Assembly: GCA_021108075.1 (NCBI GenBank)
Contig: JAIORP010000135.1
Span: forward strand, 87,938 to 151,937
Length of the DNA: 64,000 bases
DNA from: Candidatus Omnitrophota bacterium
GTDB lineage: Bacteria > Omnitrophota > Gorgyraeia > Zapsychrales > Zapsychraceae
Direction: 5' to 3'
Under the pieces are notes generated by a model. That model did no database searches and had not been told where the DNA came from. It saw only the letters and a list, made by a program, of their open reading frames with translations. A program made the position numbers and the translations under genes. This document shows positions 7,169-51,005 of the stretch, in pieces. The number at the start of each line of letters is the position of its first letter. Within the stretch, counting starts at the first letter, position 1.

Positions 7169-7192
7169 TGATTATGTCGTTCTTATAATATT

Positions 7193-9460: not shown

Positions 9461-9471
9461 AGAGTCTTAGC

Positions 9472-10962: not shown

Positions 10963-10974
10963 AGGCTTAAAAAC

Positions 10975-11853
10975 ATGAATCCGATCAATCAAGAAACAAC
11001 ATCCTCATACCAAATCCACATCCGTCCGAATAAAAGCTGGCATCACATGAATTGGCATGCGATATGGGAATACCGTGACCTGCTTTTTTTGCTGGTACGG
11101 CGTGATTTCGTATCCAAATATAAACAGACTATTCTCGGGCCGTTATGGTTTATCCTCCAGCCATTGGCAACGACCATTGTTTTCACGGTTGTCTTTAGCC
11201 GTGTCGCCCGCATCCCAACGGATTCCATTCCGCCCATGTTATTTTATCTTTGCGGGTTAATCGGCTGGATGTATTTTGCGAACTGTCTTAATTACACATC
11301 GACGACATTTGTTACGAACGCCGGAATCTTCAACAAAGTTTATTTCCCGCGCTTGATCATCCCGTTTTCTGTTATCATTTCCCGTTTTCTTGCCTTTATC
11401 ATCCAATTTGTCATGTTCATCGGATTTTATATTTTTTATAAATTTTTTACCCCCGCGTCTGATACGTTTCATTTAAACCCCGCGGCACTGATATTCTTTC
11501 CCTTGCTGATTATGCTCACAGCTTTATTAGGATTGGGCATGGGACTCTGGTTATCCGCTTTAACAGCAAAATACCGTGATTTAACACAATTAACGACCTT
11601 CTTAACCTCTTTGTGGATGTACGCGACACCCGTTATTTATCCCTTGTCGCTCATACCGGCCAAATGGCATAAAGTGATGGCCCTTAATCCCATGGCGGGT
11701 ATCGTCGAAGCTTATCGTTACTGTTTCTTCAGCGTCACTGTTGGGAATTTATTTTTTTACATGCTCAGTTCCATCATAATGACGCTGATCATCCTTATTT
11801 CCGGTATATTAATTTTCAATAAAACTGAACGTAATTTTATCGATACAATATAA
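10975..11853 (+). CDS. wzm: ABC-2 type polysaccharide exporter permease (Wzm/KpsM/TagG family)
   Basis: 6-TM ABC-2 permease. N-terminal ILGPLWFILQPLATTIVFTVVFSRVA is typical of Wzm. Confidence 0.85.
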   Translation: MNPINQETTSSYQIHIRPNKSWHHMNWHAIWEYRDLLFLLVRRDFVSKYKQTILGPLWFILQPLATTIVFTVVFSRVARIPTDSIPPMLFYLCGLIGWMYFANCLNYTSTTFVTNAGIFNKVYFPRLIIPFSVIISRFLAFIIQFVMFIGFYIFYKFFTPASDTFHLNPAALIFFPLLIMLTALLGLGMGLWLSALTAKYRDLTQLTTFLTSLWMYATPVIYPLSLIPAKWHKVMALNPMAGIVEAYRYCFFSVTVGNLFFYMLSSIIMTLIILISGILIFNKTERNFIDTI

Positions 11854-11857
11854 AAAC

Positions 11858-13186
11858 ATGAAACCCATCATTGAAATAGAAAAATTATCAAAACTGTACC
11901 GCCTGGGGAGTATCAGCGCGAACACATTCCAGGATTCACTGAAAAACTGGTTTCACCGTATTAAAAATAGCCCTCCTGCGACCGCCGATAAATCCTCTTC
12001 GCGTTTGATGATTGATCCTAACGACCCTCAGGCCGGGCCAGAACCCAATACCCTGTGGGCGCTCAGAGACATTTCTTATGAACTCCAGGAAGGGGAAATC
12101 CTCGGGATTATCGGACGCAATGGTGCCGGTAAATCGACGCTGCTCAAAATCCTGACCCAGATTACCGAACCAACCTCTGGCCAGGCTGTCCTGCGCGGCC
12201 GAACAGCGTCTTTATTAGAAATTGGCACGGGATTTCACCCTGAACTAACGGGCCGCGAAAACATCTATTTAAACGGGGCTATACTTGGAATGAAAAAAAA
12301 AGAAATTGATTCCAAATTCGAAGAAATTGTCGACTTTTCAGGCATTCCCAAATTCATCGATACACCTGTCAAACGATACTCCAGCGGCATGTATGTTCGC
12401 CTGGCTTTTGCGGTCGCGGCCCATCTCGAACCGGAGATACTGTTAGTTGATGAAGTATTGGCCGTGGGAGATGTCGAATTCCAGAAAAAATGTTTGGGCA
12501 AGATGAAAAATGTTTCAAAGAGCGGCCGGACAATCCTGTTTGTCAGTCACAATATGCAAGCGATCAAGCAATTATGTACCCAAACGATCATCCTTGACAA
12601 AGGACGAATGATATTCAGCGGCAGCGCGGAGTCCGCGGTGGATAAATATTTAGGTGACGGGTTGTCACTAAAAGGCGAACAAATCTGGGATCATACTCAG
12701 ACCGCGCCAGGCGATGATATCGTTCGTGTCCATTCTGTGCGCGTCATGAACACCGATAACCGTTCGCGCACGCAATTCGATGTTCGTGATCCGATGACAA
12801 TTGAGTTAAAATATACTGTTTATGAAGATGGACATCAACTTGCCACTCAGATCTACTTGTTTAATGATGCCGGCCAGGTTATTTTAAACACGAAAGACAA
12901 CAAAGACTCCCCCTGGGGAGATCGTTGCATCCCAAAAGGCTCCTATTGCGCGCGCTGTACGGTTCCAGCAGACCTGATCAATGAAGGACAGATATCTATC
13001 GGCATCGGTATCGGAACGGTCGGGCCGTCTTATTTCATCGGGCACGTCACAATATATGATGCTGTTATATTCGCCGTGACAGATGCTTTTGATCCAGAGG
13101 GAGTGAGGGGTAACTATCCCTTCGAATGGAAAGTGGGCGACATCCGCACGCACATCCCATGGAAGGTGGAGCGCCTTGAAAACTAA
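11858..13186 (+). CDS. wzt: ABC transporter ATP-binding protein Wzt with a C-terminal glycan-binding (Wzt_C-like) extension
   Basis: Walker A GRNGAGKST, signature YSSGMYVRLAFA, Walker B LLVDEVLAVGD. About 190-aa beta-rich C-terminal extension beyond the NBD. Confidence 0.85.
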   Translation: MKPIIEIEKLSKLYRLGSISANTFQDSLKNWFHRIKNSPPATADKSSSRLMIDPNDPQAGPEPNTLWALRDISYELQEGEILGIIGRNGAGKSTLLKILTQITEPTSGQAVLRGRTASLLEIGTGFHPELTGRENIYLNGAILGMKKKEIDSKFEEIVDFSGIPKFIDTPVKRYSSGMYVRLAFAVAAHLEPEILLVDEVLAVGDVEFQKKCLGKMKNVSKSGRTILFVSHNMQAIKQLCTQTIILDKGRMIFSGSAESAVDKYLGDGLSLKGEQIWDHTQTAPGDDIVRVHSVRVMNTDNRSRTQFDVRDPMTIELKYTVYEDGHQLATQIYLFNDAGQVILNTKDNKDSPWGDRCIPKGSYCARCTVPADLINEGQISIGIGIGTVGPSYFIGHVTIYDAVIFAVTDAFDPEGVRGNYPFEWKVGDIRTHIPWKVERLEN

Positions 13187-14037: not shown

Positions 14038-15219
14038 ATGAAGACATTTTCAAAACTGACCGGTCGCTTACTTGGACAACCGATGTTCCATCTTTTAGAA
14101 AAAATTGAACGATTTAAAAAAGCCGGCCGGGATATCATCCATCTGGAAATCGGTGATGCCGACTTCCGCGCGCACCAACACATCATTGATGCAACAAAAA
14201 ACGCGCTTGATGCCGACAAGACGCATTACGTCAATTCCATGGGGCTGAATGAACTCCGGGACGCTATTTGTGAATATACGCTGCAAACCCTGGATTTTCG
14301 GCCCCGGAGGGAACAGGTTCTTGTTATGCCGGCACATGCCATCATCGACACGCTTATCCGGTGTGTTGCTAATCCAGGAGATGAAATTATATGCCCTGAG
14401 CCGGGATTTTCAAGTTATCATGCCGTGCTGACATATTTGAATCTAAAAAAAACTTCCATCCCTTTAAAAGAAGAAAATAAATTCTGCCTGCAAGCCGCTG
14501 ATATCGAGCCTAAAATCCATGATCACACACGATTGCTCATCATCACATCACCGAATAATCCAACCGGTTCCGTTTTATCAAAAAAACAAGTCCGGGATAT
14601 CGCTTTACTGTGTCAACAAAAAGACATCTACCTTTTAAGTGATGAAATATATTCCCGCGTGATTTATGAAGGGCAACACTATTCCTGTAGTTTTCTGGAT
14701 CAATGCCGTGAAAGAACAATTATTTTAAACGGTTTCGGGAAATCATTTTCCATGCCGGGATGGAGACTTGGTTATGCCATCGGACCGGTAGACTTAATCC
14801 AGAAAATGGGACTGTTATTTCAAACGATTTATTCCTGCTGTTCGCCGTTCAATCAATACGGGGCCATTGAAGCTTTGACAGGAAACCAGGAGGTTGTTGA
14901 GGCCAGAATAAAAACATATAAATCCCTGCGGGATTTCATCCTCTCAGAAATCAATGATATCCCCGGGATAACATGCACCGCCCCTAAAGGCGCCTTTTAT
15001 ATTTTTCCGAATATCAAAGAAACCGGCCTAACAAGTGCGGCGTTTGCCGATTATATGCTGAAAAAAGCTGATGTGGCCTTATTACCCGGAACACATTTTG
15101 GGCAAACAGGCGAGGGCTATGTCCGCATTTGTTTCACAAAAAAACAAGACGAACTTCACAGAGCGTGTGAACGGATCAGAAACGCCTTAAAGGAGAGGGT
15201 GCAATGCGACCAATTCTAA
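14038..15219 (+). CDS. PLP-dependent aminotransferase, class I/II (AspAT fold)
   Basis: NGFGKSFSMPGWRLGY (SxxK lysine motif) and an overall class-I aminotransferase layout. Confidence 0.8.
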   Translation: MKTFSKLTGRLLGQPMFHLLEKIERFKKAGRDIIHLEIGDADFRAHQHIIDATKNALDADKTHYVNSMGLNELRDAICEYTLQTLDFRPRREQVLVMPAHAIIDTLIRCVANPGDEIICPEPGFSSYHAVLTYLNLKKTSIPLKEENKFCLQAADIEPKIHDHTRLLIITSPNNPTGSVLSKKQVRDIALLCQQKDIYLLSDEIYSRVIYEGQHYSCSFLDQCRERTIILNGFGKSFSMPGWRLGYAIGPVDLIQKMGLLFQTIYSCCSPFNQYGAIEALTGNQEVVEARIKTYKSLRDFILSEINDIPGITCTAPKGAFYIFPNIKETGLTSAAFADYMLKKADVALLPGTHFGQTGEGYVRICFTKKQDELHRACERIRNALKERVQCDQF

Positions 15220-16370
15220 TCAATGATATTACCCTGCGTGATGGTGAACAGGCGCCCGGAGTCAATTTTTATCCGGAGGAAAAATGCCGCATAGCCGAAC
15301 AGCTGCTAAAAATGAACATTCCTATTATTGAAGCCGGTTTTGCGATTGCTTCGGACAACGACTTTGATGCGATTCAAATGATCAGCAAAAGATTCGGACA
15401 CAAATCCGGTCCGGTCATCTGTTCCATGGCACGCGCGACCCTCAGAGATATTGAACGCGCAGCAGAATCCGTCCGCCCCGCGGCCAGAGGCCGGGTCCAG
15501 GTCGTTTTGGGCACGTCGGACATCCATCTCAAATACAAATTCAAAAAAACACGCAATGAAATCAAAGATATCGCGCATAAAACGGTCCGTTACGCCAAAA
15601 CACTTTGTGCTGATATCGAATTCGCCGCGGAAGACGCGACAAGAAGCGATATTGATTTTTTAACGGAAGTCACGCAAATCGCGGTTGCGGCCGGGGCAAC
15701 GACCATTGAGTTACCGGACACAGTTGGATATGCCACTCCGCACGAATATGCGCATCTCGTTCAACATATCGTTGATCATATGGATCCGGGCATCACCGTT
15801 GCCACACACTGTCACAATGATTTAGGCCTGGCGGTCGCCAACACCCTTTTTGGTATTATGGCCGGCGCTTCCCAGGCGGAAGTAACGATAAACGGCATCG
15901 GTGAACGGGTGGGCAATGCCTCAGCCGAAGAAGTCATTATGGCGTTAAAAACACGACAGGATTACTTTCAAATCCAATTGGATATCAATACCAAAGAAAT
16001 CATGAAGACATCAGAATTAGTGGAAGAACTATCGGCCATCAAGGTTGCAAACAATAAAGCCATCGTCGGCTGCAATGCCTTTCGCCATGAATCAGGCATC
16101 CACCAGGACGGTTTGATCAAAAACAAAAGCACCTATCAAATCATGGAACCGGAAGACATCGGTGTTAAAGGGTATGGTCTTGTCTTAGGAAAGCTTTCCG
16201 GCCGGCATGCCTTGCAGGATAAGATCCAATCATTCGGGCTCACAATGAATGATCAGGAGTTTGACCGATTCTACATGGCATTCAAAGATGTGGCCTCTAA
16301 AAAAAAGTTTCTGTTAGAAGAAGATCTTCTCAAACTCATAAAGAAGCATGGCTATGAAACGATCAAGTGA
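15204..16370 (+). CDS. LeuA/NifV/CimA-family (HMGL-like, DRE-TIM metallolyase) acyl-CoA:2-oxoacid condensing enzyme. Short form without the LeuA regulatory domain.
   Basis: ITLRDGEQAPG and HCHNDLGLAVANTL motifs. 388 aa. Confidence 0.75.
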   Translation: MRPILINDITLRDGEQAPGVNFYPEEKCRIAEQLLKMNIPIIEAGFAIASDNDFDAIQMISKRFGHKSGPVICSMARATLRDIERAAESVRPAARGRVQVVLGTSDIHLKYKFKKTRNEIKDIAHKTVRYAKTLCADIEFAAEDATRSDIDFLTEVTQIAVAAGATTIELPDTVGYATPHEYAHLVQHIVDHMDPGITVATHCHNDLGLAVANTLFGIMAGASQAEVTINGIGERVGNASAEEVIMALKTRQDYFQIQLDINTKEIMKTSELVEELSAIKVANNKAIVGCNAFRHESGIHQDGLIKNKSTYQIMEPEDIGVKGYGLVLGKLSGRHALQDKIQSFGLTMNDQEFDRFYMAFKDVASKKKFLLEEDLLKLIKKHGYETIK

Positions 16371-17247
16371 TTACCATTCAATTCCAGACCTCGCGCAATT
16401 GTTTTCAAAAGAACAATCGATCGGTATATTTGAAAAAATGTGCCTGTGCCGTTATTTCGAACTGGAGGTGGCCAATGCCTATGAAAAAAGTCTTATCGCC
16501 AGTCCGATCTACTTATCCATCGGGCAGGAATCCATTTCAGCAGCTTTGTCGACGGTGATTTCTAATTTTACCATTTTTGCTCAACACCGCTGCCACTCGG
16601 CCTATTTAGCCTTCGGGGGAGACCAGCATAAAATTGTCGACGAACTCCTCGGGCGTCCAACAGGCTGCGCTTTTGGGCAAGGCGGTTCACCCATGCTACA
16701 GGACCCGGATATCCCCATGATCGGACATCATGGATTAATCGGTGAAAATATTCCTCTGGCGGTCGGTTATGCCTTAGGCAGTACTCAGCCAACTTTATGT
16801 CTTTTCGGAGATGCGGCAGCAGAAGAAGATTATGCCCTGACCGCTATGGGATTTGCGTCAAAACATCAACTGCCCGTTTTATTTGTTTGTGAAGACAATG
16901 ATTTGTCCATTTTAACGCCGACAGAGGTCCGCCGAAACTGGGAAATCTGCGATGTTGCGCAGGCCCTGAACATGCCAGCTGTTGATATCACGGATGACCC
17001 CTGGTTAATCGCTCATCACGCGCAAGAACTCATCCAGTCATTGCCAGCGTTCATCAACTGCCGCACCTGCCGGCATTACTGGCACGCAGGGGTCGGCATT
17101 GATCATGAACCGGAATGGGACCGTCTTCAACTCGTTAAAGATCAATTAAAGACGTTAAGCATTAACGCCCAGGACATCGAAGAACAGACAAAACAAGACA
17201 TAAAAGGATTATGGGAAAAACTGTTGCCGAAACAATTAAAGATCTAA
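16348..17247 (+). CDS. TPP-binding subunit of a split TPP-dependent enzyme (2-oxoacid dehydrogenase E1-alpha-like or transketolase N-terminal-like)
   Basis: GDAAAEEDYALTAMGFASKHQLPVLFVCEDNDLSI matches the TPP-binding GDG...E...N motif region. Confidence 0.65.
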   Translation: MAMKRSSDYHSIPDLAQLFSKEQSIGIFEKMCLCRYFELEVANAYEKSLIASPIYLSIGQESISAALSTVISNFTIFAQHRCHSAYLAFGGDQHKIVDELLGRPTGCAFGQGGSPMLQDPDIPMIGHHGLIGENIPLAVGYALGSTQPTLCLFGDAAAEEDYALTAMGFASKHQLPVLFVCEDNDLSILTPTEVRRNWEICDVAQALNMPAVDITDDPWLIAHHAQELIQSLPAFINCRTCRHYWHAGVGIDHEPEWDRLQLVKDQLKTLSINAQDIEEQTKQDIKGLWEKLLPKQLKI

Positions 17248-18140
17248 CCTTTGATCACTTAAAAAATAATAACGGACTGCTCTTAGGCCAGGCCATTACG
17301 GCCGTGGGCTATGTGAACCATACTGTTCCGAAAAATTGTCCGGGCATCATTGAACTCTCCATGGCTGACGTCGCGGGTTCAGGCATCGCAGTTGGAACAG
17401 CTCTTGCGGGTCGAAGACCTATTTTAGTTATCCGCTTCCAGGACTTTTTGATCTTAAACGGCAGTATGTTGATCAACTATGCCGCCAAATCAAAAGATAT
17501 GTTTCAACAGCCCTCACCGATCTTCGTGCGCGCATTAGCCATTGAAGGACACGGTGCCGGACCGGTTCACTCAGCAAAACTTCATAATATCTTCATGCAT
17601 TTTCCCGGATTCCGTGTTTGGGCGCCGATAACACCGAATGAATATAAACAAACATGGACAGACTTTTTGGAGCATGATGATCCGGTCATCTCCTGCGAAC
17701 ATCGCAGCAGCTTTTCTTCTCGTGATGAATATGCGAATGAAATAGAACCGGCTGCGGATATCACCCTATTCGGCATATCTGTTGGACGGACGAACATCAT
17801 AAAAGCAGCGCGGACATTACGGGCTGAGGGGATCACGGTCAACCTTGTTCATATCGTCCAACTCAAACCACTTGTACTGCAACAATCATGGCTTGAGGCT
17901 TTAAGCCGCAGCCATTGCGGACTGGTGGTCGACACGGGCTTTGAAACTTGCGGGGCCGGCCAAAACATTGCCTATGAATTGATGTTAAAGACGAATAAAC
18001 CTGTTCAGGCATTGGGACTCAAGGACGTCTCTGTAGGCGTTTCCGGGGATAAAGAAAATTTAACACCCCGTCCGGAGCAAATTGTTACAGCGGTTAAAAA
18101 TAGGCTAAGAAACCGGTCAGGTCCGATGCGGTCAGCTTAA
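17211..18140 (+). CDS. Pyrimidine-binding/C-terminal subunit of the split TPP enzyme (E1-beta-like or transketolase C-terminal-like)
   Basis: Transketolase_pyr-like region (SMADVAGSGIAVGTALAGRRP...FQDFLILNGSMLINYAAK) plus a C-terminal domain. Overlaps the upstream subunit gene in another frame. Confidence 0.65.
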   Translation: MGKTVAETIKDLTFDHLKNNNGLLLGQAITAVGYVNHTVPKNCPGIIELSMADVAGSGIAVGTALAGRRPILVIRFQDFLILNGSMLINYAAKSKDMFQQPSPIFVRALAIEGHGAGPVHSAKLHNIFMHFPGFRVWAPITPNEYKQTWTDFLEHDDPVISCEHRSSFSSRDEYANEIEPAADITLFGISVGRTNIIKAARTLRAEGITVNLVHIVQLKPLVLQQSWLEALSRSHCGLVVDTGFETCGAGQNIAYELMLKTNKPVQALGLKDVSVGVSGDKENLTPRPEQIVTAVKNRLRNRSGPMRSA

Positions 18141-18158
18141 CACTATCAGGAGGCTATT

Positions 18159-18893
18159 ATGTCAGTATTTAATTTTCAAAATAAAACCGCGGTCGTAACA
18201 GGGGGAACACGCGGTATCGGCCGAGCGGTCGCGAAAGGTCTCCTCGAATCAGGAGCAAAAGTGATCGTAACGGGCACAAAGGAATCACCCGCCTGGTTAA
18301 ACAACTATCCCCGGGCACAGCATATGACATTAGACTTTCTTAAAGAAAACAGCCTGTCATCATTTATGGCGTCGTTTCCACCGGAACAGGCGGTCGACAT
18401 TCTCATTAATAATGCCGGTATCCACATACCAAAACCTTTTACAGAACTAACACAACAGGACTGGGAAGATATCATGAGAATCAATATTATCGGCCCGGCA
18501 GATCTCATCAATAAAATGATCCCCTTTATGCGAAAAAATGTGTCCGGAAACATCCTCAATATGAGTTCGATCGCTGGATTCATCGCCCGTCCGGGATCAA
18601 CGGCTTACTCGGCGAGCAAATCCGCCTTAAATGCTTTCACCCGGTCACTCGCTTTAGAACTGGCAAAGGATAACATCAAGGTTAACGCTCTTTGCCCTGG
18701 AACAACAGAAACAGATATGGTTAAAGAACAAATGGATGAAGACCGGCGCAAACATTTTCTATCACTTATTCCGATGCAGCGTTTTGCCCTTCCTGAAGAA
18801 ATCGCCCAATGGGCTTTGTTCCTTTGTTCAGACTTGAATACTTATATGACCGGGCAAACGGTCATTGTGGACGGCGGGGCAACCATACAATAA
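18159..18893 (+). CDS. Short-chain dehydrogenase/reductase (FabG-like SDR)
   Basis: TGGTRGIGRAVA Rossmann motif and YSASK catalytic motif. Strong AGGAGG-like RBS. Confidence 0.85.
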   Translation: MSVFNFQNKTAVVTGGTRGIGRAVAKGLLESGAKVIVTGTKESPAWLNNYPRAQHMTLDFLKENSLSSFMASFPPEQAVDILINNAGIHIPKPFTELTQQDWEDIMRINIIGPADLINKMIPFMRKNVSGNILNMSSIAGFIARPGSTAYSASKSALNAFTRSLALELAKDNIKVNALCPGTTETDMVKEQMDEDRRKHFLSLIPMQRFALPEEIAQWALFLCSDLNTYMTGQTVIVDGGATIQ

Positions 18894-18926: not shown

Positions 18927-20081
18927 ATGAAAAAAATCGCCATGATACCTGTTCGACTGAACAGTCAACGGGTTCCAAATAAAAATTTAAGGCTGCTCAA
19001 TGGCAAACCGATGGTCGCCTATATCATCGAAACGGCATTGGCAACAAATACTTTTGATGAGGTTTACCTGAATTCCGAAGCGGAAATATTTAAGGAAATA
19101 GCCGACCAATATGGCATTAAATTTTACCACCGTCCGGCAGAACTGGCCTCAGACCGGTCAACGAGTGAGGACTTTGTCTATGACTTCATCAAAAATGTTG
19201 AAGGGGATGTGCTCTACCAGCTGCTGGCGACATCACCATTAATCACTCCCATGGAAATCACACATTTTGTGCATGATATGTCCCTGAATGCATTAGACAC
19301 GCTGGTTTCAATCGTGAATCATCGCATCGCGAGCCTCTACAAAAAGCAACCGGTTAATTACGGATTAACAGAAAAATTGAAGAGCTCTCAGACGATGGTC
19401 CCTGTCCAAACATACGCGACGGTTCTTATGGCCTGGCGATATGAAAACTTCAAGGCCAATATGGAAACGCATGGATGCGCTTATTATGGTGGTGACGGTC
19501 GGATTGGATATTATGAATTGAAGGGATTATCCGCCATTGACGTGGACCAGGAAGAAGATTTTATTTTAGCTGAAATCGCGATGCAATATCGAAATGAATC
19601 CCGTCAGGATCAACCGCGGTATTACACATCCAAAAAACAAAAAAACGAACATAGTGAAGTGGATGTTCCGGAAATCCTACGCAAAGACGGCGTCAGCCTT
19701 CGCGATTTTGAACACGAAAATCAACCCTTATTTCACGTGCAGCAGATCATTGATAAGATGGGAACCAACCAATCCTGGTCATACCGGGTGGTTAACACGG
19801 AAAGTAACAGCGCAACCTTAATATCACAAATGCCCGGAGGAGGGAATCGACGGCATTATCATCCAGACTGGAATGAATGGTGGTACATCATCAAAGGTCA
19901 ATGGAAATGGGAAATTGAAGGCAAAAAAATCATTGTCAAAAAAGGTGATATCGTTTTTATCGAAAAGAATAAATGGCACCAAATTACGGCGATGGGAGAA
20001 GAATCTGCTATCCGTCTGGCTGTCAGCCGTGGTGATGTGCCGCACATTTACACAGAGGACATTGAAAACCCATGCCAATAA
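18927..20081 (+). CDS. Acylneuraminate/Kdo-type cytidylyltransferase-family domain (CTP_transf_3) fused to a C-terminal cupin domain
   Basis: N-terminal MKKIAMIPVRLNSQRVPNKNL...GKP (CMP-sugar synthetase family). C-terminal HYHPDWNEWWYIIKG...KWHQI cupin-like motifs. Confidence 0.7.
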   Translation: MKKIAMIPVRLNSQRVPNKNLRLLNGKPMVAYIIETALATNTFDEVYLNSEAEIFKEIADQYGIKFYHRPAELASDRSTSEDFVYDFIKNVEGDVLYQLLATSPLITPMEITHFVHDMSLNALDTLVSIVNHRIASLYKKQPVNYGLTEKLKSSQTMVPVQTYATVLMAWRYENFKANMETHGCAYYGGDGRIGYYELKGLSAIDVDQEEDFILAEIAMQYRNESRQDQPRYYTSKKQKNEHSEVDVPEILRKDGVSLRDFEHENQPLFHVQQIIDKMGTNQSWSYRVVNTESNSATLISQMPGGGNRRHYHPDWNEWWYIIKGQWKWEIEGKKIIVKKGDIVFIEKNKWHQITAMGEESAIRLAVSRGDVPHIYTEDIENPCQ

Positions 20082-20848
20082 AAAATAATCAAGAAATCAC
20101 ACAATTATTTCAACCGTTATTACAAGAAGCCCGAGAACTGATACAGAAAAAACCTCTTAAAATTTATGAATCACAACAAAAAGATATTTCCATAAACTTG
20201 GATCTGATGCTGCATGACCTGATAAAAAATTTCTTATCCCAACACTTTTCCTTTGATGTCCTATCCGAAGAAGATAAGGACCAGTGCGACTTTCTGAAGC
20301 AAACACAACCCGTCTGGATCATTGATCCGCTGGATGGATCTTTCAATGTCAGCCGTCAGATCCCGATGTCTTGCCTATCGTTGGGGTTGTGGTATGATGA
20401 TACGCCCCGGTGGGGGCTTATTTACGATTTCAATCGGGATGAATTGTTTATCGGCTCACTGCCGGAGAATGAAATTTGTGCCCGGTCCGGTGCCTGGTGC
20501 AATCAGCAACCGATACAGCCGGCGCGTACCCCGGTCGCTGAAGGCGTTTTATCCACGGGCTACCCTTCATGGCGGGATTTCTCCGATGACGCCTTAAAAC
20601 GCTCCATTCAGCAGGTTCAATCCTGGAAGAAAATTCGCATGATTGGTTCAGCCGCGCTTTCCCTGGCCTGGGTTGGATGTGGACGGGTCGATGCGTATAT
20701 GGAAGAGGATATCCGGATTTGGGATGTCGCAGCAGGGTTGGCCATCGTGCAGGCGGCCGGGGGCCAGTTTGTCATGCAAAAAAACCAAAAAACAAATTTT
20801 GTCACGGTAAAAGCCGCCAATGGAACGATACCCGTAAATGAAATTTAA
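20072..20848 (+). CDS. Inositol-monophosphatase-family sugar phosphatase (IMPase/CysQ-like)
   Basis: WIIDPLDGSFN and WDVAAGLAIVQAAGG motifs. Confidence 0.75.
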   Translation: MPIKNNQEITQLFQPLLQEARELIQKKPLKIYESQQKDISINLDLMLHDLIKNFLSQHFSFDVLSEEDKDQCDFLKQTQPVWIIDPLDGSFNVSRQIPMSCLSLGLWYDDTPRWGLIYDFNRDELFIGSLPENEICARSGAWCNQQPIQPARTPVAEGVLSTGYPSWRDFSDDALKRSIQQVQSWKKIRMIGSAALSLAWVGCGRVDAYMEEDIRIWDVAAGLAIVQAAGGQFVMQKNQKTNFVTVKAANGTIPVNEI

Positions 20849-20880: not shown

Positions 20881-21870
20881 ATGATTAAAGTCGGAATCAT
20901 TGGTTTCGGAAAAATGGGAAAAATAAGGGCGCATGCGATAAAAGCGAACGCTCTCGGACAGATTGTGTCAATTTTTGAAGTTGATAAAAATCTCATTTCT
21001 GATGAATATCCTTTTGTTGAAAGCGTAGACGACATATTCAATAATGAGGACATCAATACCCTTTTCATTTGCACACCCAATTATTTAAACAAAGATCTCA
21101 CGATAAGAAGCCTTCAGGCCGGCAAACATGTCTTTTGTGAAAAACCGCCGGCATTTAATGAGCAAGATATGCAGGCCGTCATTGCCGTTGAAAAAAAAAC
21201 GGACACGAAGTTGATGTACGGGTTTAATCATCGGCACCATACCAGCATCAAGCACATTAAACACCTGATTGATTCAGGAGAATACGGGAACATCTTATGG
21301 ATGCGCGGACGTTATGGTAAAAGCACGGACACGTCTTTTTTTGATACCTGGCGGGCCAAAAAAAAACTTGCGGGCGGGGGCATTTTATTAGATCAGGGCA
21401 TTCACATGTTAGATCTTTTCCTGTGTTTTGCCAAGGACTTTCATGAGACACATTCTTTTGTGTCCAATTTATATTGGAAGTTGGAGATCGAAGACAATGT
21501 CTTTGCCATCCTCAGAAACAATAACAATGGCATTGTTGCCTCATTGCATTCAACGATGACACAATGGCGCCATCTTTTTTCTCTGGAAATCTTCCTGGAA
21601 AAAGGATATTTTGTTTTAAATGGACTAAAAACTTCAAGTGGTACTTACGGCGATGAAATATTAACGATAGCTAAGAATCGCTCGACCGCTCCGGCGGCAA
21701 CATGGGAAGATGAAGAAAAAATCGTCTATCAAACCGACCGGTCCTGGCGCTCAGAAATCGATTATTTCTTTGATGCCATCTTAAAAGACACGCCCATTGA
21801 AGTCGGCAATTCTTTAGACGCCCTTAAATTGATGGCGATCACAGATAAGCTATACCAGGAAAGGACCTAA
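20881..21870 (+). CDS. Gfo/Idh/MocA-family NAD(P)-dependent oxidoreductase
   Basis: N-terminal IKVGIIGFGKMGK Rossmann region, EKP motif, typical length. Confidence 0.75.
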   Translation: MIKVGIIGFGKMGKIRAHAIKANALGQIVSIFEVDKNLISDEYPFVESVDDIFNNEDINTLFICTPNYLNKDLTIRSLQAGKHVFCEKPPAFNEQDMQAVIAVEKKTDTKLMYGFNHRHHTSIKHIKHLIDSGEYGNILWMRGRYGKSTDTSFFDTWRAKKKLAGGGILLDQGIHMLDLFLCFAKDFHETHSFVSNLYWKLEIEDNVFAILRNNNNGIVASLHSTMTQWRHLFSLEIFLEKGYFVLNGLKTSSGTYGDEILTIAKNRSTAPAATWEDEEKIVYQTDRSWRSEIDYFFDAILKDTPIEVGNSLDALKLMAITDKLYQERT

Positions 21871-21871: not shown

Positions 21872-22435
21872 ATGGAGGATAAACAATTCATTGAGACCTA
21901 TTTTCAAACGTTTCAACAATGTATTCAGCCCGGCGGGATCGAAGAAGACATGCTGAAAATGCGGGATATCATGCTTGCGGCTAACCGCGCGAGAAAAAAA
22001 ATTATCTTCGCCGGCAACGGAGCAAGCGCGACAATTGCCAGTCATTGCGCCTTAGATTACACAAAACAAGCGGGTATCCGTTCAACATGTTTTAACGAAG
22101 CCGCATTATTAACGGCTTTTGGAAACGATTTTGGTTATGAAATGTGGCTGCAAAAAGCCCTGGAATTTTATGCCGATAAAGAAGATTTGATCGTCTTAAT
22201 CAGTTCTAGTGGCAAATCGCCGAATATCATCAACGCCGCACAATATGCTAAAGACAAAAAATTTACAATCGTAACATTGACAGGTTTTGATCCCAATAAT
22301 CCTTTAAAAAAAATGGGTGATATCAACTTCTGGGTAGAAAGCAAGTCCTATAATATGATTGAATGCACACATATGTTCTGGCTTGTTCTTGTTTGTGACC
22401 TTATTATCGGCAAATCAGAGTACAAAACATCGTAA
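21872..22435 (+). CDS. SIS-domain sugar-phosphate isomerase (GmhA-like sedoheptulose-7-phosphate isomerase type)
   Basis: 187 aa, single SIS domain, GNGASATIASHCALD and ISSSGKSPNII motifs. Confidence 0.7.
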   Translation: MEDKQFIETYFQTFQQCIQPGGIEEDMLKMRDIMLAANRARKKIIFAGNGASATIASHCALDYTKQAGIRSTCFNEAALLTAFGNDFGYEMWLQKALEFYADKEDLIVLISSSGKSPNIINAAQYAKDKKFTIVTLTGFDPNNPLKKMGDINFWVESKSYNMIECTHMFWLVLVCDLIIGKSEYKTS

Positions 22436-22515: not shown

Positions 22516-23976
22516 ATGTTAGACCTCCTTATTATAAAACCAGGCGCACAGCGCTTTCTATACCAAAAACTTAGCTCGTCTATTAGCGCGATCGAACCGC
22601 CACTGTGGGGACTATTGCTCGCAAACTTTATCCGTCAAAATGGATTTCAGGTTCAAATCAAAGATGCTGAAATTGACACGATTCAATCGATCCAAGAGAC
22701 GATAACAACCCGTAACCCCAAATTAATCGCCATCGTCGTATCAGGGACCAATCCTTCGGCCTCAACCATGAACATGGTCGGCGCAACGGCCATGATTCGT
22801 CATCTTCGACAATATTTTCCCGGGCTGAAAATCATCCTAATCGGATTACACCCTTCGGCGTTACCAGAACAGACGTTACGGGATGAAAATGTGGATTATG
22901 TCTGCGAGGGAGAAGGGTTTGAGACCACCCTGCTCTGGCTGCAGGGATCAAAATTAGAAGGAATCCCAGGTTTATGGTATAAAGAAGGGCTTCAAATAAA
23001 GCATCAAGAACGGGCGTGCTTAGTTGATCCCAACAGGATGCCCATGCCTGCCTGGGATCTCGTCGACTTAAACCGCTACCGCGCGCATAATTGGCACTGT
23101 TTTGGAAGCCTTGATCAACGCCAGCCATACGCGGTCATATATACGAGCCTCGGTTGTCCGTATCATTGTGACTTCTGCTGTATTCACGCGATATTCGGGC
23201 AGCCCAATATTCGTTACCGGTCCATCAACCTCATCATGGAAGAAGTGGATCTATTGGTCAATGATTATCATGTTAAAAACATAAAAATTCTTGATGAATG
23301 TTTTGTACTTGATCAGCAACATGTGTTAGAATTTTGTGAAGCGATGATCCGCCGCAAGTATTCGGTCAATATGTGGGCTTACGCCCGGATTAACACCATC
23401 AACGAAAAAATTCTTTTAAAAATGAAAGCGGCCGGCTTTCGTTGGATCGGCTATGGGATCGAATCAGGAACACCCGCGGTTTTAAGTGGTGTCCATAAAG
23501 CGCAATACGATAACCAAAAAATTTTTGACGTCGTCAAATTAACAAAAAAATCAGGGCTAAATGTCGGGGGGAATTTTATCTTTGGACTCCCGAATGACAA
23601 TATCGCGGGGATGCGGCGCACATTAGCCTTAGCCGTTCAACTCAATTGTGAATACGCGAACTTTTATACGGCGATGGCTTATCCGGGGTCAAAACTCTAT
23701 GATAAAGTCAGACATAAAGCCGGGCTATTACCCCGGACATGGGAAGGATATTCACAATTTGGAACAGAATGTTTTCCATTGCGCAATGATTTCTTAACAC
23801 AAACGGACATACTGGCTTTCCGCGATCAAGCTTTTATCGACTATTTTTCCCGGGCTGAATACCTTGATATGATTGAGCGAAAATTTGGAAGTCAGACAAT
23901 GCTTCATATCAATAAGATGACACAATACAAATTAAAGAGGACACTGCTAGAAGTCGACCAACAACAGCTGGCTTAA
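22516..23976 (+). CDS. B12-binding domain radical SAM protein (class B radical SAM, methyltransferase-like)
   Basis: N-terminal cobalamin-binding-like Rossmann region. CPYHCDFC (CxxxCxxC) radical SAM cluster motif. Confidence 0.8.
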   Translation: MLDLLIIKPGAQRFLYQKLSSSISAIEPPLWGLLLANFIRQNGFQVQIKDAEIDTIQSIQETITTRNPKLIAIVVSGTNPSASTMNMVGATAMIRHLRQYFPGLKIILIGLHPSALPEQTLRDENVDYVCEGEGFETTLLWLQGSKLEGIPGLWYKEGLQIKHQERACLVDPNRMPMPAWDLVDLNRYRAHNWHCFGSLDQRQPYAVIYTSLGCPYHCDFCCIHAIFGQPNIRYRSINLIMEEVDLLVNDYHVKNIKILDECFVLDQQHVLEFCEAMIRRKYSVNMWAYARINTINEKILLKMKAAGFRWIGYGIESGTPAVLSGVHKAQYDNQKIFDVVKLTKKSGLNVGGNFIFGLPNDNIAGMRRTLALAVQLNCEYANFYTAMAYPGSKLYDKVRHKAGLLPRTWEGYSQFGTECFPLRNDFLTQTDILAFRDQAFIDYFSRAEYLDMIERKFGSQTMLHINKMTQYKLKRTLLEVDQQQLA

Positions 23977-23986: not shown

Positions 23987-24982
23987 ATGATCATCAGTCG
24001 TACACCGTTTAGAATTTCATTTTTTGGTGGAGGAACAGATTACCCCGCATGGTATGAAAAAAACGGAGGAGCGGTCTTATCAACGACTATCGATAAATAT
24101 TGTTATTTAACCTGCCGCTCTCTGCCCCCTTTCTTTGACCATCGCTACCGCATTGTTTATTCAAAGATTGAATTAGTCAAAGACGTCCACAAAATTCAAC
24201 ACCCGGTTGTCCGCGTATGCCTGGAAAACATGGATGTCCCGCAAGGGATTGAACTGCATCACGATGGGGATTTACCTGCCCGGACAGGCTTAGGTTCAAG
24301 CTCTGCTTTTACGGTTGGGCTGCTACACTCCCTCTACGCGCTCAAAGGGATCATGCCGACCAAAAAACGTCTTGCGGATGAAGCCATACATTTTGAAAGG
24401 GAAGTATTGAGTGAAGCTGTCGGCTCACAGGACCAGGTCGCTGTCGCTCATGGCGGGTTTAATAAAATTTCTTTCAGTCAAACCGGGGACTATCAAATAG
24501 ATCCCGTGATCTTAGACCGTGACCGCCTGGATAATTTGCAAAATCATATCATGCTTTACTTCACGGGTTTTTCCAGAATCGCCTCCAAGGTCGCACGGAA
24601 GCAAATTGAAAACACCCCTAAAAAGCAAAAAGAACTGGCCACCATGCAATCTATGGTCGACACGGCCATTGACATCTTATGCAATCGCAGGGACCTCACT
24701 GAATTCGGCCGGTTGCTGCATGAAACATGGATGCTGAAAAGATCGCTGACAGATAAAGTGTCAACAAACGATATCGATCAAATATATGCTGACGCCCGTT
24801 CTTCCGGCGCTATCGGAGGTAAACTCATTGGAGCTGGCGGGGGCGGATTCATGATTCTCTTTGTTCCGCCAAAGCTCCAGAATAAAGTTCGCGTGAAGTT
24901 AAACAATTTGTTGGAAGTAAAATTCAATTTTGAAACTTCTGGCACGCAAATTATTTTTCATAAAGAAGATCCTATCATATAA
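23987..24982 (+). CDS. GHMP-family sugar kinase (D-glycero-D-manno-heptose-7-phosphate kinase HddA-like)
   Basis: GHMP motif LPARTGLGSSSAFTVG. C-terminal GAGGGGF motif. Confidence 0.75.
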   Translation: MIISRTPFRISFFGGGTDYPAWYEKNGGAVLSTTIDKYCYLTCRSLPPFFDHRYRIVYSKIELVKDVHKIQHPVVRVCLENMDVPQGIELHHDGDLPARTGLGSSSAFTVGLLHSLYALKGIMPTKKRLADEAIHFEREVLSEAVGSQDQVAVAHGGFNKISFSQTGDYQIDPVILDRDRLDNLQNHIMLYFTGFSRIASKVARKQIENTPKKQKELATMQSMVDTAIDILCNRRDLTEFGRLLHETWMLKRSLTDKVSTNDIDQIYADARSSGAIGGKLIGAGGGGFMILFVPPKLQNKVRVKLNNLLEVKFNFETSGTQIIFHKEDPII

Positions 24983-50962: not shown

Positions 50963-51005
50963 TTTCAGGGGGAGAGTATGTCCCGGTTTGTCCATTAGTG
51001 TCATA

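What the first reader, a model, noticed from the sequence alone, without database searches (positions are those of the whole stretch)
14038..18893. Amino-acid/2-oxoacid-type enzyme module (aminotransferase, LeuA/NifV-like synthase, split TPP E1/transketolase-like alpha+beta, SDR) embedded in a glycan locus
A class-I aminotransferase, a short LeuA/NifV/CimA-family DRE-TIM enzyme, a split TPP-dependent enzyme and an SDR form a translationally coupled run inside a polysaccharide cluster. No LeuCD/LeuB homologs and no E2/E3 partners are nearby. Two readings are possible. (a) The TPP enzyme is a split transketolase supplying an unusual ketose-phosphate, such as sedoheptulose-7-P or a higher ketose, to the downstream SIS/GHMP-kinase/phosphatase steps. 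(b) The set builds a non-sugar acyl or amino-acid-like substituent (a 2-oxoacid elongated by the LeuA-like enzyme, decarboxylated or ligated by the E1-like enzyme, then transaminated and reduced) that decorates the glycan. Neither matches a pathway I can name.
Basis: inference. Interest (0 to 1): 0.7.

Follow-up and report, generated by a model that had tools for sequence, protein, structure and literature searches.

The report
LeuA-like/E1 thiamine cassette for sugar tailoring
Inside a 50-kb cell-surface sugar locus of an uncultured Omnitrophica bacterium sits a conserved, uncharacterised gene cassette (aminotransferase, a re-tooled short isopropylmalate-synthase relative and a two-subunit thiamine enzyme, here followed by a reductase) that most likely attaches a carbon side chain derived from a 2-oxo acid to a sugar.

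Summary
The five ORFs exist as described and overlap or nearly abut. The window holds no LeuCD, LeuB, E2/E3 or PEP mutase.

They are neither housekeeping genes nor a chance neighbourhood. AT–LeuA-like–E1α–E1β recurs in the same order in six other loci (Omnitrophota, Paceibacterota, Planctomycetota, metagenomes). Two marine contigs with one shared gene map have LeuA-like–E1α–E1β without the AT. All lie among sugar-tailoring genes.

The LeuA-like protein belongs to a monophyletic clade of short forms (at least 120 sequence clusters). It keeps every catalytic residue, but residues of the 2-oxo-acid pocket that never vary in 69 canonical LeuA are replaced (H→Q, F→V, S→A, N→E, L→M).

The E1 pair is far from true PDH E1. 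Its family sits with NDP-sugar epimerase/dehydratases (25/31 loci), an HddA-like kinase (17/31) and B12-radical-SAM enzymes.

The closest known system is the E1-type "αKADH2" enzymes that add an acetyl branch from pyruvate to keto sugars in actinomycete antibiotics.

Best reading: an E2-independent thiamine carboligase makes a C-acyl sugar, AT and LeuA-like handle the 2-oxo-acid partner, and the SDR reduces the new ketone. The donor, the acceptor stage and the exact role of LeuA-like remain unresolved.

Verdict: a new variant of a known kind.

The parts
14038..15219 (+). Class I/II PLP aminotransferase of the Asp/aromatic alpha-amino-acid type. It is the first gene of the conserved cassette.
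   Evidence: PF00155, 222 bits. The closest solved structures are the P. horikoshii aminotransferases 1DJU/1GD9 (271 bits), and the Arg of GEGYVRI aligns with theirs; from general knowledge of this fold I read it as the alpha-carboxylate-binding Arg. Homologues 55-60% identical sit directly upstream of the LeuA-like gene in L004, L085, L086 and L087; in L169 and L170 a class I/II aminotransferase occupies the same position (identity not computed). No class I/II aminotransferase is on record in L171/L172.
15204..16370 (+). Short LeuA-like DRE-TIM synthase with no regulatory domain and a remodelled 2-oxo-acid pocket.
   Evidence: HMGL-like plus HCS_D2; NF002086 520 bits against a cut-off of 532. 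The catalytic residues R12, D13, Q16, E143, T173, H202, H204, H296 and Y311 are kept. Pocket residues that are invariant (F7 nearly so, 65/69) in 69 canonical LeuA are changed: F7N, T9I, L75M, H99Q, F101V, S141A, N169E. The clade is monophyletic, 100/100. The top 120 database hits are all 346-404 aa.
16348..17247 (+). E1 alpha-like thiamine-diphosphate subunit (299 aa).
   Evidence: PF00676, 66 bits. TIGR03182 125 bits against a cut-off of 394. The GDA...EDN metal/ThDP motif and the TxRxxxH motif are invariant in 15 relatives. 2219 homologues were found.
17211..18140 (+). E1 beta-like subunit (309 aa).
   Evidence: PF02779 plus PF02780. It scores only 50 bits against solved E1 beta structures. 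Asp stands where canonical E1 beta has the cofactor-activating Glu.
18159..18893 (+). Classical SDR, the candidate ketoreductase for the new acyl branch.
   Evidence: adh_short / adh_short_C2. SDRs (28-30% id to this one) lie 0-1.9 kb downstream of E1 beta in L008, L015 and L016. The SDR is not part of the four-gene cassette in the other loci.
18927..20081 (+). CTP_transf_3 cytidylyltransferase fused to a C-terminal cupin (context gene).
   Evidence: PseF model 79 bits against a cut-off of 206. Weak homologues lie near the E1 pair in the Pelagibacteraceae (SAR11 family) loci L020 and L025.
20072..20848 (+). Inositol-monophosphatase-family phosphatase (context gene).
   Evidence: PF00459, 140 bits.
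20881..21870 (+). GFO/IDH/MocA oxidoreductase, a candidate for making the keto group on the sugar (context gene).
21872..22435 (+). GmhA-like SIS isomerase, below the family threshold (context gene).
   Evidence: TIGR00441 74 bits against a cut-off of 209. An SIS gene lies near the E1 pair in 7/31 loci.
22516..23976 (+). B12-binding radical-SAM enzyme. This is a frequent neighbour of the E1 pair.
   Evidence: Homologues 35-51% identical occur in many related loci, where they are often the gene right after E1 beta.
23987..24982 (+). HddA-like GHMP sugar kinase, the gene most strongly co-conserved with the E1 pair.
   Evidence: HddA model 143 bits against a cut-off of 600. Closest PDB entries are 3K85, 4USK and 4N3O. 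17/31 family loci carry a homologue of this kinase within 10 kb, mostly 50-63% identical (32-48% in a few archaeal and SAR11 loci).

Best explanation
The E1alpha/E1beta pair is an E2-independent thiamine-diphosphate carboligase. It decarboxylates a 2-oxo acid and adds the resulting acyl-anion equivalent to a carbonyl of a carbohydrate, most likely a keto group on a nucleotide-activated heptose-like sugar. That sugar would be made by the downstream GmhA-like isomerase, HddA-like kinase, phosphatase and nucleotidyltransferase, and oxidised by the GFO/IDH/MocA enzyme. The product is a C-acyl (branched) sugar.

The aminotransferase and the short LeuA-like synthase are dedicated partners on the 2-oxo-acid side. 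The aminotransferase would turn an amino acid into a polar 2-oxo acid. The LeuA-like enzyme, whose pocket no longer fits 2-oxoisovalerate, would condense a polar 2-oxo acid with acetyl-CoA to modify or extend it. The SDR reduces the ketone of the new branch, and the B12-radical-SAM enzyme C-methylates the product. The finished sugar is then built into the exported glycan.

Shown: the gene families, the conserved cassette, the remodelled LeuA pocket, the divergence of the E1 pair from dehydrogenase-complex E1, and the sugar-tailoring neighbourhoods.

Inferred: the carboligase activity (about 0.7), the acceptor being an NDP-keto sugar rather than a sugar phosphate, and AT/LeuA-like acting on the donor side (about 0.35-0.4).
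For: 1. The cassette is conserved. AT-LeuA-like-E1a-E1b occurs in the same order in the window, L004, L085, L086, L087, L169 and L170. LeuA-like-E1a-E1b without the AT occurs in L171/L172. Identities for L004 and L085-L087 are 55-70%. In addition, 24 contig lengths are shared between the E1a and LeuA-like hit lists.

2. The E1 family sits in sugar-tailoring neighbourhoods. NAD epimerase/dehydratases occur in 25/31 loci, the HddA-like kinase in 17, DegT in 14, an SDR in 12, B12-rSAM enzymes in 9+9+6, and an AKR in 5.

3. The E1 pair is not a dehydrogenase-complex E1. Its scores are 125 against a cut-off of 394 and 82 against 321. It scores only 50-68 bits against solved E1 structures. No E2 or E3 is present in the window.

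4. There is a precedent. E1-type 'alphaKADH2' enzymes (AviB1/B2, Pau11/12, the aldgamycin enzyme, and KbDH-a/b in vitro) add an acetyl branch from pyruvate to keto sugars, and the branch is then reduced, methylated or transaminated (PMC12247030, PMC4753412).

5. There is a precedent for the logic. In acyl-branched LPS sugars, an enzyme that makes a functionalised 2-oxo acid (a DRE-TIM aldolase or a transaminase) is encoded next to the ThDP enzyme and a reductase (PMC9306805).

6. Alternative modules that form 2-oxo acids exist in the family. A galactarate/altronate-type dehydratase lies within 10 kb of the E1 pair in L005, L008, L011 and L023. The DJ-1/cupin/dehydratase gene set and the AT/LeuA-like set never occur in the same locus (0/6 against 18/29).

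7. The LeuA-like enzyme keeps all catalytic and 2-oxo-acid-carboxylate-binding residues but changes the pocket positions that set specificity in MAM synthase (BjMAM V182 and A253 correspond to Q99 and E169 here).
Against: The product of a LeuA-type reaction is a 2-alkylmalate, not a 2-oxo acid. Feeding the E1 pair would therefore need LeuCD/LeuB-like steps. None is encoded in the window or within 10 kb in the related cassette loci whose gene maps were read. Some hosts are CPR bacteria, which by general knowledge mostly lack amino-acid pathways.

E1 pairs next to the cassette differ from other family members at almost no clade-specific positions: none in alpha and four in beta. A changed donor is therefore not visible in the E1 sequence.

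Characterised alphaKADH2 enzymes use only pyruvate (PMC12247030).

Most members have Asp instead of the universal cofactor-activating Glu in the beta subunit.

No extended-SDR 4,6-dehydratase lies next to the module in this window; the nearest is at 43154.

No sequence of a characterised alphaKADH2 enzyme was available, so relatedness to that group is untested.
Confidence: 0.42

Rival explanations
1. Branch elaboration. The E1 pair first installs a C2 branch (acetyl or hydroxyacetyl) on a keto sugar, as known alphaKADH2 or split-transketolase enzymes do. After oxidation, the branch carries a 2-oxo-acid function. The LeuA-like enzyme (adding acetate) and/or the aminotransferase (making an amino-acid branch) then act on this sugar-borne 2-oxo acid.
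For: This route needs no LeuCD or LeuB, which fits their absence from all cassette loci. The LeuA-like pocket gains polar residues (N7, Q99, E169) that could bind sugar hydroxyls. E1 sequences hardly differ between loci with and without the cassette, which fits a common donor such as pyruvate. The AT is dispensable in L171/L172. Known branches are transaminated in kibdelomycin (PMC12247030). In L171 the LeuA-like gene overlaps an upstream NDP-sugar epimerase gene.
Against: A nucleotide sugar is far larger than any known LeuA-family substrate. No LeuA or class I aminotransferase is known to act on a sugar-borne 2-oxo acid. The oxidation steps that this route needs are unassigned.
Confidence: 0.2
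2. Modified reading (a). The E1 pair works at the sugar-phosphate stage. In a DXS- or transketolase-like reaction, a 2-oxo acid (for example hydroxypyruvate derived from serine by the AT) plus an aldose phosphate gives an unusual ketose phosphate. The SIS isomerase, GHMP kinase, phosphatase and nucleotidyltransferase then convert it into a nucleotide sugar.
For: The strongest co-conserved partner of the E1 pair is the anomeric GHMP kinase (17/31 loci). In many loci the pair directly abuts a PMI-type cupin, a HAD phosphatase and this kinase. The window encodes a complete route of isomerase, kinase, phosphatase and nucleotidyltransferase immediately downstream.
Against: The pair belongs to the E1 family, not the transketolase or DXS families. 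An SIS gene is present in only 7/31 loci. Sedoheptulose-7-phosphate from central metabolism already explains the isomerase and kinase genes. Loci such as L016, L024 and L027 have the pair with DegT or epimerases and without any kinase. The LeuA-like enzyme has no role in this scheme.
Confidence: 0.15
3. Reading (b). The module builds a non-sugar substituent by an Ehrlich-type route: amino acid to 2-oxo acid (AT), optional extension (LeuA-like), decarboxylation to an aldehyde (E1 pair), then reduction to an alcohol (SDR). The alcohol is activated by the kinase and cytidylyltransferase and attached to the glycan as a phospho-alcohol or ester.
For: The gene order in this window, AT-LeuA-E1-SDR-cytidylyltransferase, matches this sequence of reactions.
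Against: The kinase is an HddA-type anomeric sugar kinase, and it is conserved next to the E1 pair in loci that lack AT, LeuA-like and SDR. The SDR and the CTP_transf_3 gene are not conserved with the cassette. The family is embedded among NDP-sugar epimerases, dehydratases and DegT.
Confidence: 0.08
4. Ordinary metabolism or a known pathway. The genes would be a leucine or branched-chain 2-oxo-acid operon, or a phosphonate pathway, lying in the locus by chance.
For: Public annotation calls the genes '2-isopropylmalate synthase' and 'pyruvate dehydrogenase E1'.
Against: The synteny is conserved only inside sugar-tailoring loci. The regulatory domain is lost and the pocket changed. All curated thresholds are missed. 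The window has no LeuBCD, E2/E3 or PEP mutase. Canonical LeuA loci (80 from metagenomes) never carry the AT or E1 neighbours.
Confidence: 0.03

Closest known systems
alphaKADH2-type (E1 alpha/beta) ThDP sugar-branching enzymes of actinomycete antibiotic pathways: AviB1/AviB2 (avilamycin), Pau11/Pau12 (paulomycin), the aldgamycin enzyme and KbDH-alpha/beta (kibdelomycin). Sources: PMC12247030, PMC4753412.
   Same: Both are two-subunit E1-type ThDP enzymes without an E2/E3 partner, encoded among sugar-tailoring genes. Enzymes that could tailor the branch (a reductase, a methylating enzyme, an aminotransferase) are encoded next to them.
   Different: The known enzymes come from secondary-metabolite clusters of actinomycetes and use only pyruvate, giving a C2 branch. 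The pair here lies in cell-surface glycan loci of Omnitrophota, CPR, Planctomycetota, Nitrospira, SAR11 and DPANN archaea. It is fused into a cassette with a LeuA-like synthase and a class I aminotransferase. It carries Asp at the cofactor-activating position. Sequence relatedness to the characterised enzymes could not be tested.
Acyl-branched LPS sugar pathways: yersiniose (YerE/YerF), erwiniose (ErwI/J/E/F), caryophyllose (MMAR_2331/2332). Source: PMC9306805.
   Same: The logic is the same: an enzyme that makes a functionalised 2-oxo acid (a DRE-TIM aldolase or a transaminase), a ThDP carboligase and an NAD(P)H reductase are encoded together inside a surface-glycan locus.
   Different: In those pathways the ThDP enzyme is a single-chain acetolactate-synthase/decarboxylase-type protein, not an E1 alpha/beta pair. 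Their DRE-TIM partner is a BphI-type pyruvate aldolase, not an acetyl-CoA-dependent LeuA-type synthase.
2-Oxo-acid chain-elongation synthases without a regulatory domain: methylthioalkylmalate synthase (PDB 6E1J; PMC11532901, PMC8468904) and HphA.
   Same: The regulatory domain is lost. The closest solved structure is 6E1J (372 bits). All catalytic residues are kept, and specificity is changed at the same pocket positions (182, 225 and 253 in BjMAM numbering). An aminotransferase is the pathway partner.
   Different: MAM and HphA work with dedicated or housekeeping isomerase and dehydrogenase steps, and none is encoded in the cassette loci whose gene maps were read. The pocket here is polar (Gln, Glu, Asn), not enlarged and hydrophobic. 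The genomic partner is a ThDP E1 pair.
GDP-D-glycero-alpha-D-manno-heptose pathway (GmhA, HddA, GmhB, HddC).
   Same: An SIS isomerase, a GHMP anomeric kinase, a phosphatase and a nucleotidyltransferase are encoded directly downstream. The closest structures to the kinase are heptose-phosphate kinases.
   Different: All scores fall far below the curated thresholds (74 against 209; 143 against 600). The phosphatase belongs to the IMPase family, not the HAD family. The adjacent nucleotidyltransferase is of the CTP_transf_3 type and is fused to a cupin.

Membership tests
alphaKADH2-type ThDP sugar-branching carboligase | Two-subunit E1 architecture: an alpha subunit with E1_dh, and a beta subunit with a pyrimidine-binding domain plus a transketolase C-terminal domain. 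| tested here: met
   PF00676 on 16348-17247; PF02779 plus PF02780 on 17211-18140.
alphaKADH2-type ThDP sugar-branching carboligase | ThDP/Mg2+-binding motif retained. | tested here: met
   G154-D155 ... E182-D183-N184 are invariant in 15 relatives.
alphaKADH2-type ThDP sugar-branching carboligase | Cofactor-activating Glu in the beta subunit. | tested here: inconclusive
   The column holds Asp in the window and in 28 of 31 clade members, and Glu in L016, L024 and L027. All canonical E1 beta sequences examined have Glu. An acidic residue is kept, but not the canonical one.
alphaKADH2-type ThDP sugar-branching carboligase | No E2/E3 partner; encoded among sugar-tailoring genes. | tested here: met
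   No lipoyl/E2 or E3 protein in the window. Epimerase/dehydratases in 25/31 family loci.
alphaKADH2-type ThDP sugar-branching carboligase | Sequence clustering with characterised members (KbDH, AviB1/B2, Pau11/12). | not testable with these tools
   No sequences of these proteins could be obtained. Krug et al. 2024 is not held. The plasmid search gave only hits of 35% identity or less, and the one neighbourhood examined (L168) showed no deoxysugar genes.
alphaKADH2-type ThDP sugar-branching carboligase | Carboligation of a 2-oxo acid with a keto sugar. | not testable with these tools
   This needs an enzyme assay.
2-isopropylmalate synthase (LeuA) | DRE-TIM catalytic domain with Arg/Asp/His-x-His metal site and the Glu, His and Tyr catalytic residues. 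| tested here: met
   R12, D13, Q16, E143, T173, H202, H204, H296 and Y311 align with BjMAM R89, D90, Q93, E227, T257, H288, H290, H388 and Y399.
2-isopropylmalate synthase (LeuA) | C-terminal leucine-binding regulatory domain (protein about 500 aa). | tested here: not met
   The protein is 388 aa with no LeuA_dimer hit. Canonical relatives are about 500 aa.
2-isopropylmalate synthase (LeuA) | 2-Oxoisovalerate pocket residues. | tested here: not met
   H99Q, F101V, S141A, N169E, L75M, F7N and T9I replace residues found in 65-69 of 69 canonical LeuA. Positions 99 and 169 are published specificity positions in MAM synthase.
2-isopropylmalate synthase (LeuA) | Curated equivalog score, and leu-operon context. 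| tested here: not met
   520 bits against a cut-off of 532 for the best model; other LeuA models are missed by more than 100 bits. No LeuBCD in the window or in the related cassette loci whose gene maps were read.
Pyruvate / branched-chain 2-oxo-acid dehydrogenase E1 | Curated family score and an adjacent E2 (and E3). | tested here: not met
   125 against 393.85 (alpha) and 81.9 against 321 (beta). No E2 or E3 is present.
Split transketolase | Transketolase_N-type ThDP domain on the first subunit. | tested here: not met
   Only E1_dh is hit. A true Transketolase_N/DXP_synthase_N pair occurs separately in L087.
Phosphonate pathway (FrbC / Pms-type LeuA homologue) | PEP mutase and phosphonopyruvate decarboxylase in the cluster. 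| tested here: not met
   Neither was found among the Pfam-scanned ORFs of the window.
Acyl-branched sugar scheme (Steitz et al. 2022) | A 2-oxo-acid-forming enzyme, a ThDP carboligase and an NAD(P)H reductase co-encoded in a glycan locus. | tested here: met
   AT and LeuA-like, the E1 pair and the SDR are contiguous.
Acyl-branched sugar scheme (Steitz et al. 2022) | ThDP enzyme of the YerE (decarboxylase/ALS) type, and a BphI-type pyruvate aldolase. | tested here: not met
   Here the ThDP enzyme is an E1 alpha/beta pair and the DRE-TIM protein is LeuA-type.

The most novel reading that the evidence does not exclude
An E1-type thiamine enzyme, so far known only to add a two-carbon branch from pyruvate in antibiotic pathways, works here with a re-tooled LeuA and an aminotransferase. 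Together they would build a long, polar, amino-acid-derived carbon branch, or a branch carrying a carboxylate or amino-acid group, on a heptose-like sugar. The result would be a new class of heavily alkylated 'glyco-amino-acid' sugars on the surfaces of Omnitrophota, CPR bacteria, Planctomycetota and marine Alphaproteobacteria. It would also give a LeuA-family enzyme a role outside 2-oxo-acid chain elongation, one that needs no LeuCD or LeuB.
Probability: 0.25. Interest if true: 0.8.

Novelty: new variant of a known kind. Interest (0 to 1): 0.6.

Why it matters
The cassette is widespread: at least 120 sequence clusters of the short LeuA-like protein across several phyla, mostly uncultured. It is annotated everywhere as "2-isopropylmalate synthase" and "pyruvate dehydrogenase E1". 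Those labels mislead metabolic reconstructions of CPR and Omnitrophota genomes, because they suggest leucine synthesis or pyruvate oxidation that is probably not there.

If the model holds, three things follow. E1-type sugar-branching chemistry would extend from actinomycete antibiotics to cell-surface glycans. The current view that these enzymes make only C2 branches would be open to challenge. The cassette would also provide new C-C-bond-forming biocatalysts that make tertiary alcohols, together with a LeuA variant that accepts polar 2-oxo acids.

Tried and rejected
- An exact-sequence look-up of the E1alpha ORF failed because the deposited protein uses a different start codon.
- The metagenome scan with the LeuA-like protein returned only canonical LeuA of about 500 aa, 45-52% identical, with no cassette neighbours. 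I used these as the outgroup.
- I searched for E1 residues specific to cassette loci, which might reveal a changed donor pocket. There were none in alpha and four in beta, which is too few to interpret.
- HMMs of the DJ-1 and PMI-type cupin proteins that accompany the E1 pair elsewhere find nothing in the window.
- A plasmid tblastn search for an actinomycete alphaKADH2 to compare with gave only hits of 35% identity or less. The Streptomyces plasmid hit (L168) showed no similarity to the epimerase/dehydratase, DegT or nucleotidyltransferase reference proteins used here.
- Krug et al. 2024 (doi 10.1002/anie.202403535), the in-silico survey of alphaKADH2 clusters, is not held. I could not check whether it already lists such cassettes.
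- The promoter and terminator scans gave counts no higher than shuffled sequence, so operon boundaries are not defined.
- A full-text search combining LeuA, E1, radical SAM, GHMP and polysaccharide found no paper.
- Rejected: the phosphonate pathway (no PEP mutase in the window), a housekeeping leu or BCKDH operon, and a true split transketolase.

Full report
**Source and observation**

The window comes from a Candidatus Omnitrophica MAG. The E1alpha and LeuA-like products are 100% identical to NCBI proteins from a 163-kb contig of that MAG.

All five ORFs of the finding are present on the + strand at the stated coordinates. Pfam and NCBIfam confirm the assignments:
- 14038-15219: class I/II aminotransferase.
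- 15204-16370: a 388-aa LeuA-like protein (HMGL-like plus HCS_D2, no regulatory domain).
- 16348-17247: an E1_dh alpha subunit.
- 17211-18140: a Transket_pyr/Transketolase_C beta subunit.
- 18159-18893: a classical SDR.

The first four genes overlap by 16-37 nt.

The module lies in a glycan locus of about 50 kb. On one side are a WecA-like GT4, Wza, Wzz/tyrosine kinase, Wzy_C and Wzm/Wzt. On the other are many glycosyl- and methyltransferases. Housekeeping genes such as citrate synthase begin only at about 53.5 kb.

No LeuCD, LeuB, E2/E3 or PEP mutase was found in any Pfam-scanned ORF of the window.

**The cassette is conserved**

Neighbourhoods of E1alpha and LeuA-like homologues show AT–LeuA-like–E1alpha–E1beta in the same order. 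Gene maps with overlapping or closely spaced genes are available for:
- L004 (metagenome);
- L085 (metagenome);
- L086 (Omnitrophota);
- L087 (Paceibacterota, a CPR phylum);
- L169 (Planctomycetota genome CP070728.1);
- L170 (metagenome).

For L004 and L085-L087, identities to the window proteins are 55-70%.

Two marine contigs with the same gene map (L171/L172) have LeuA-like–E1alpha–E1beta, and no class I/II aminotransferase is on record in them. L022 has the LeuA-like gene 7.5 kb from the E1 pair. The tightest link is therefore LeuA-like with the E1 pair; the AT is frequent but optional.

The SDR is specific to this window. SDRs (28-30% id to this one) lie 0-1.9 kb downstream of E1beta in three other family loci.

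As an indirect check, 24 exact contig lengths are shared between the top-120 lists for E1alpha and for LeuA-like.

Eighty metagenome loci that encode canonical LeuA (45-52% identical, mostly about 500 aa) never carry the AT or E1 neighbours.

**The LeuA-like protein**

Its nearest curated models are bacterial LeuA: 520 bits against a cut-off of 532, and 479 bits for TIGR00973. NifV (309), homocitrate synthase (266) and CimA (180 and 156) score far lower.

The top 120 database hits are all short (346-404 aa) and 56-69% identical. They come from Omnitrophota, Paceibacterota, Harrisonbacteria, Chloroflexi, Planctomycetota and Alphaproteobacteria.

In a neighbour-joining tree, 26 members form a clade with 100/100 support. 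The comparison set was 69 canonical LeuA, eight other short LeuA, Neisseria LeuA and Brassica MAM synthase.

The clade keeps every catalytic and 2-oxo-acid-binding residue defined for MAM/IPMS. R12, D13, Q16, E143, T173, H202, H204, H296 and Y311 correspond to BjMAM R89, D90, Q93, E227, T257, H288, H290, H388 and Y399.

It replaces residues that are invariant in the 69 canonical LeuA (F7 nearly so, 65/69): F7N, T9I, L75M, H99Q, F101V, A103G, S141A, N169E and E312Q. All 20 further members sampled carry the same signature.

Positions 99 and 169 correspond to BjMAM1A Val182 and Ala253, which are published pocket positions that set substrate preference. From memory of the M. tuberculosis LeuA structure, L143, H167, Y169, S216, N250 and P252 line the isopropyl pocket, and five of these six are changed here. 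That mapping rests on my own knowledge, not on a tool.

The enzyme is therefore most likely still an acetyl-CoA-dependent synthase acting on a 2-oxo acid. Its substrate is not 2-oxoisovalerate and is probably more polar (Gln, Glu and Asn in the pocket).

**The E1 pair**

Both subunits fall far below the curated PDH-E1 thresholds: 125 against 394 and 82 against 321. They score only 50-68 bits against solved E1 structures. There is no Transketolase_N, DXS or phosphonopyruvate-decarboxylase-type hit.

The ThDP/Mg motif (GDA…EDN) and a TxRxxxH motif are invariant. In the beta subunit, the position of the cofactor-activating Glu holds Asp in the window and in 28 of 31 clade members.

A genome-wide scan found family members of at least 38% identity in Deltaproteobacteria, Saccharibacteria, other CPR phyla, DPANN archaea, Bdellovibrionota, Terriglobia, Magnetococcus, Geomonas and SAR11.

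Within 10 kb of the E1 pair these loci carry:
- NAD-dependent epimerase/dehydratases in 25/31 loci (59 genes);
- a homologue of the window's HddA-like GHMP kinase in 17/31, mostly 50-63% identical;
- DegT in 14;
- DJ-1/PfpI in 14;
- a PMI-type cupin in 13;
- an SDR in 12;
- B12-radical-SAM enzymes (three clusters, in 9, 9 and 6 loci);
- a HAD phosphatase in 8, an SIS isomerase in 7 and an aldo-keto reductase in 5.

A typical layout is DegT–Epim–Epim–GHMP–NTP-transferase–[SDR–AT]–E1a–E1b–rSAM–rSAM, as in Nitrospira.

A second, more distant E1 alpha/beta clade occupies the same position in other loci such as L054. It occurs together with the first clade in L002 and L171.

**What is known**

A 2025 review (PMC12247030) describes E1-type "alpha-keto acid dehydrogenase 2" ThDP enzymes that add an acetyl branch from pyruvate to keto sugars. 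The examples are aldgamycin (genetics and feeding), kibdelomycin (KbDH-alpha/beta, in vitro), and the proposed cases of avilamycin, paulomycin, kosinostatin and trioxacarcin (see also PMC4753412). The branch is then reduced, methylated, oxidised or transaminated.

The review states that this group "appears to be specialized for C2 branches". It mentions about 120 clusters found in silico, citing Krug et al. 2024, which I could not read.

For LPS sugars, Steitz et al. (PMC9306805) showed a common logic. An enzyme that makes a functionalised 2-oxo acid (a DRE-TIM pyruvate aldolase; transamination is named as an alternative) is encoded next to a YerE-type ThDP carboligase and a reductase. Together they make branches of four to seven carbons.

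**Interpretation**

The window's module has the same three-part logic, but built from different protein families:
- AT and LeuA-like handle the 2-oxo acid.
- The E1 alpha/beta pair makes the C-C bond.
- The SDR reduces the ketone.

Other 2-oxo-acid-forming modules in the family support the donor-supply view. A galactarate/altronate-type dehydratase, which makes 2-keto-3-deoxy acids, lies within 10 kb of the E1 pair in L005, L008, L011 and L023. The DJ-1/cupin/dehydratase gene set never co-occurs with AT/LeuA-like (0/6 against 18/29 loci).

The downstream genes could supply and prepare a heptose-like acceptor. They are a GmhA-like SIS isomerase, an HddA-like kinase, an IMPase-type phosphatase, a CTP_transf_3–cupin protein and a GFO/IDH/MocA oxidoreductase. 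All of them score well below the curated thresholds, so the sugar is uncertain.

**Weak points**

- A LeuA-type product is not a 2-oxo acid. No isomerase or dehydrogenase is encoded in the window or within 10 kb in the related cassette loci whose gene maps were read. CPR hosts generally lack amino-acid pathways (general knowledge).
- E1 pairs in cassette loci show almost no clade-specific substitutions.
- For these reasons I keep two serious rivals. In the first, LeuA-like and AT act after branching, on a 2-oxo-acid function carried by the sugar.
- A free-standing substituent made by an Ehrlich-type route is less likely.
- A housekeeping operon is contradicted. No support for a phosphonate route was found in the window.

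**Verdict**

This is a widespread, conserved and uncharacterised cassette. It is best filed as a new variant of ThDP-dependent sugar C-branching: E1-type chemistry in surface-glycan loci, coupled to a re-tooled LeuA.

My confidence is about 0.7 that the E1 pair is a carbohydrate C-C carboligase. It is about 0.4 for the full model as stated.

Noticed in passing
window 17211-18140 (E1 beta, residue D52); related loci L001-L033: The position that holds the ThDP-activating Glu in canonical E1 beta ('TPISE') is Asp ('ELSMADV') in the window and in 28 of 31 clade members. The three members with Glu (L016, L024, L027) are loci where no GHMP kinase, cupin or DJ-1 gene was found within the held flank.
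   Followed up: partly
L002 1869-3900, L171 5994-8002, L054, L046, L051, L038, L066, L076: A second, distant E1 alpha/beta clade (beta-subunit motifs 'TPLSEDAMTG' and 'GRGWGQ.QHSKS') occupies the same place in sugar loci, next to the same HddA-like kinase and B12-rSAM genes. Some loci carry both clades. L087 additionally has a true split-transketolase-like pair.
   Followed up: partly
L005, L006, L009, L011, L017, L023, L025 and others: In loci without AT/LeuA-like, the E1 pair is usually flanked by a DJ-1/PfpI protein and a PMI-type cupin of about 250 aa. A HAD phosphatase and a galactarate/altronate-type dehydratase are often present too. The two accessory sets never occur together.
   Followed up: partly
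L086, L087, L085, L169, L170: Cassette loci carry three to five B12-binding radical-SAM genes each, plus HemN-like ones. They also carry a small GT2 of about 235 aa, and sometimes a PMT_2/ArnT-like GT-C. This suggests repeated C-methylation and transfer through a polyprenyl-phosphate sugar.
   Followed up: no
window 6359-13186: The locus encodes both a Wza / Wzz-tyrosine-kinase / Wzy_C set and an ABC exporter (Wzm, and Wzt with a Wzt_C carbohydrate-binding domain). It therefore carries parts of two different export routes side by side.
   Followed up: no
window 18927-20081: A CTP_transf_3 (PseF/KdsB-like) cytidylyltransferase is fused to a C-terminal cupin. This family normally activates 2-keto-3-deoxy sugar acids, which are themselves 2-oxo acids. 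No NeuB/KdsA-type synthase was found in the window.
   Followed up: partly
window 24988-25923, 3508-4566, 44838-46862, 27-1979: Four sizeable ORFs (311, 352, 674 and 650 aa) in or at the edge of the locus have no Pfam match. The 311-aa ORF lies between the GHMP kinase and a GT2.
   Followed up: no
window 26877-28964: A single 695-aa protein carries three class I SAM-methyltransferase domains.
   Followed up: no
window 50925-53252: The 775-aa ORF that closes the locus has no domain hit apart from a weak C-terminal PEP-CTERM-like motif (E = 0.055).
   Followed up: no
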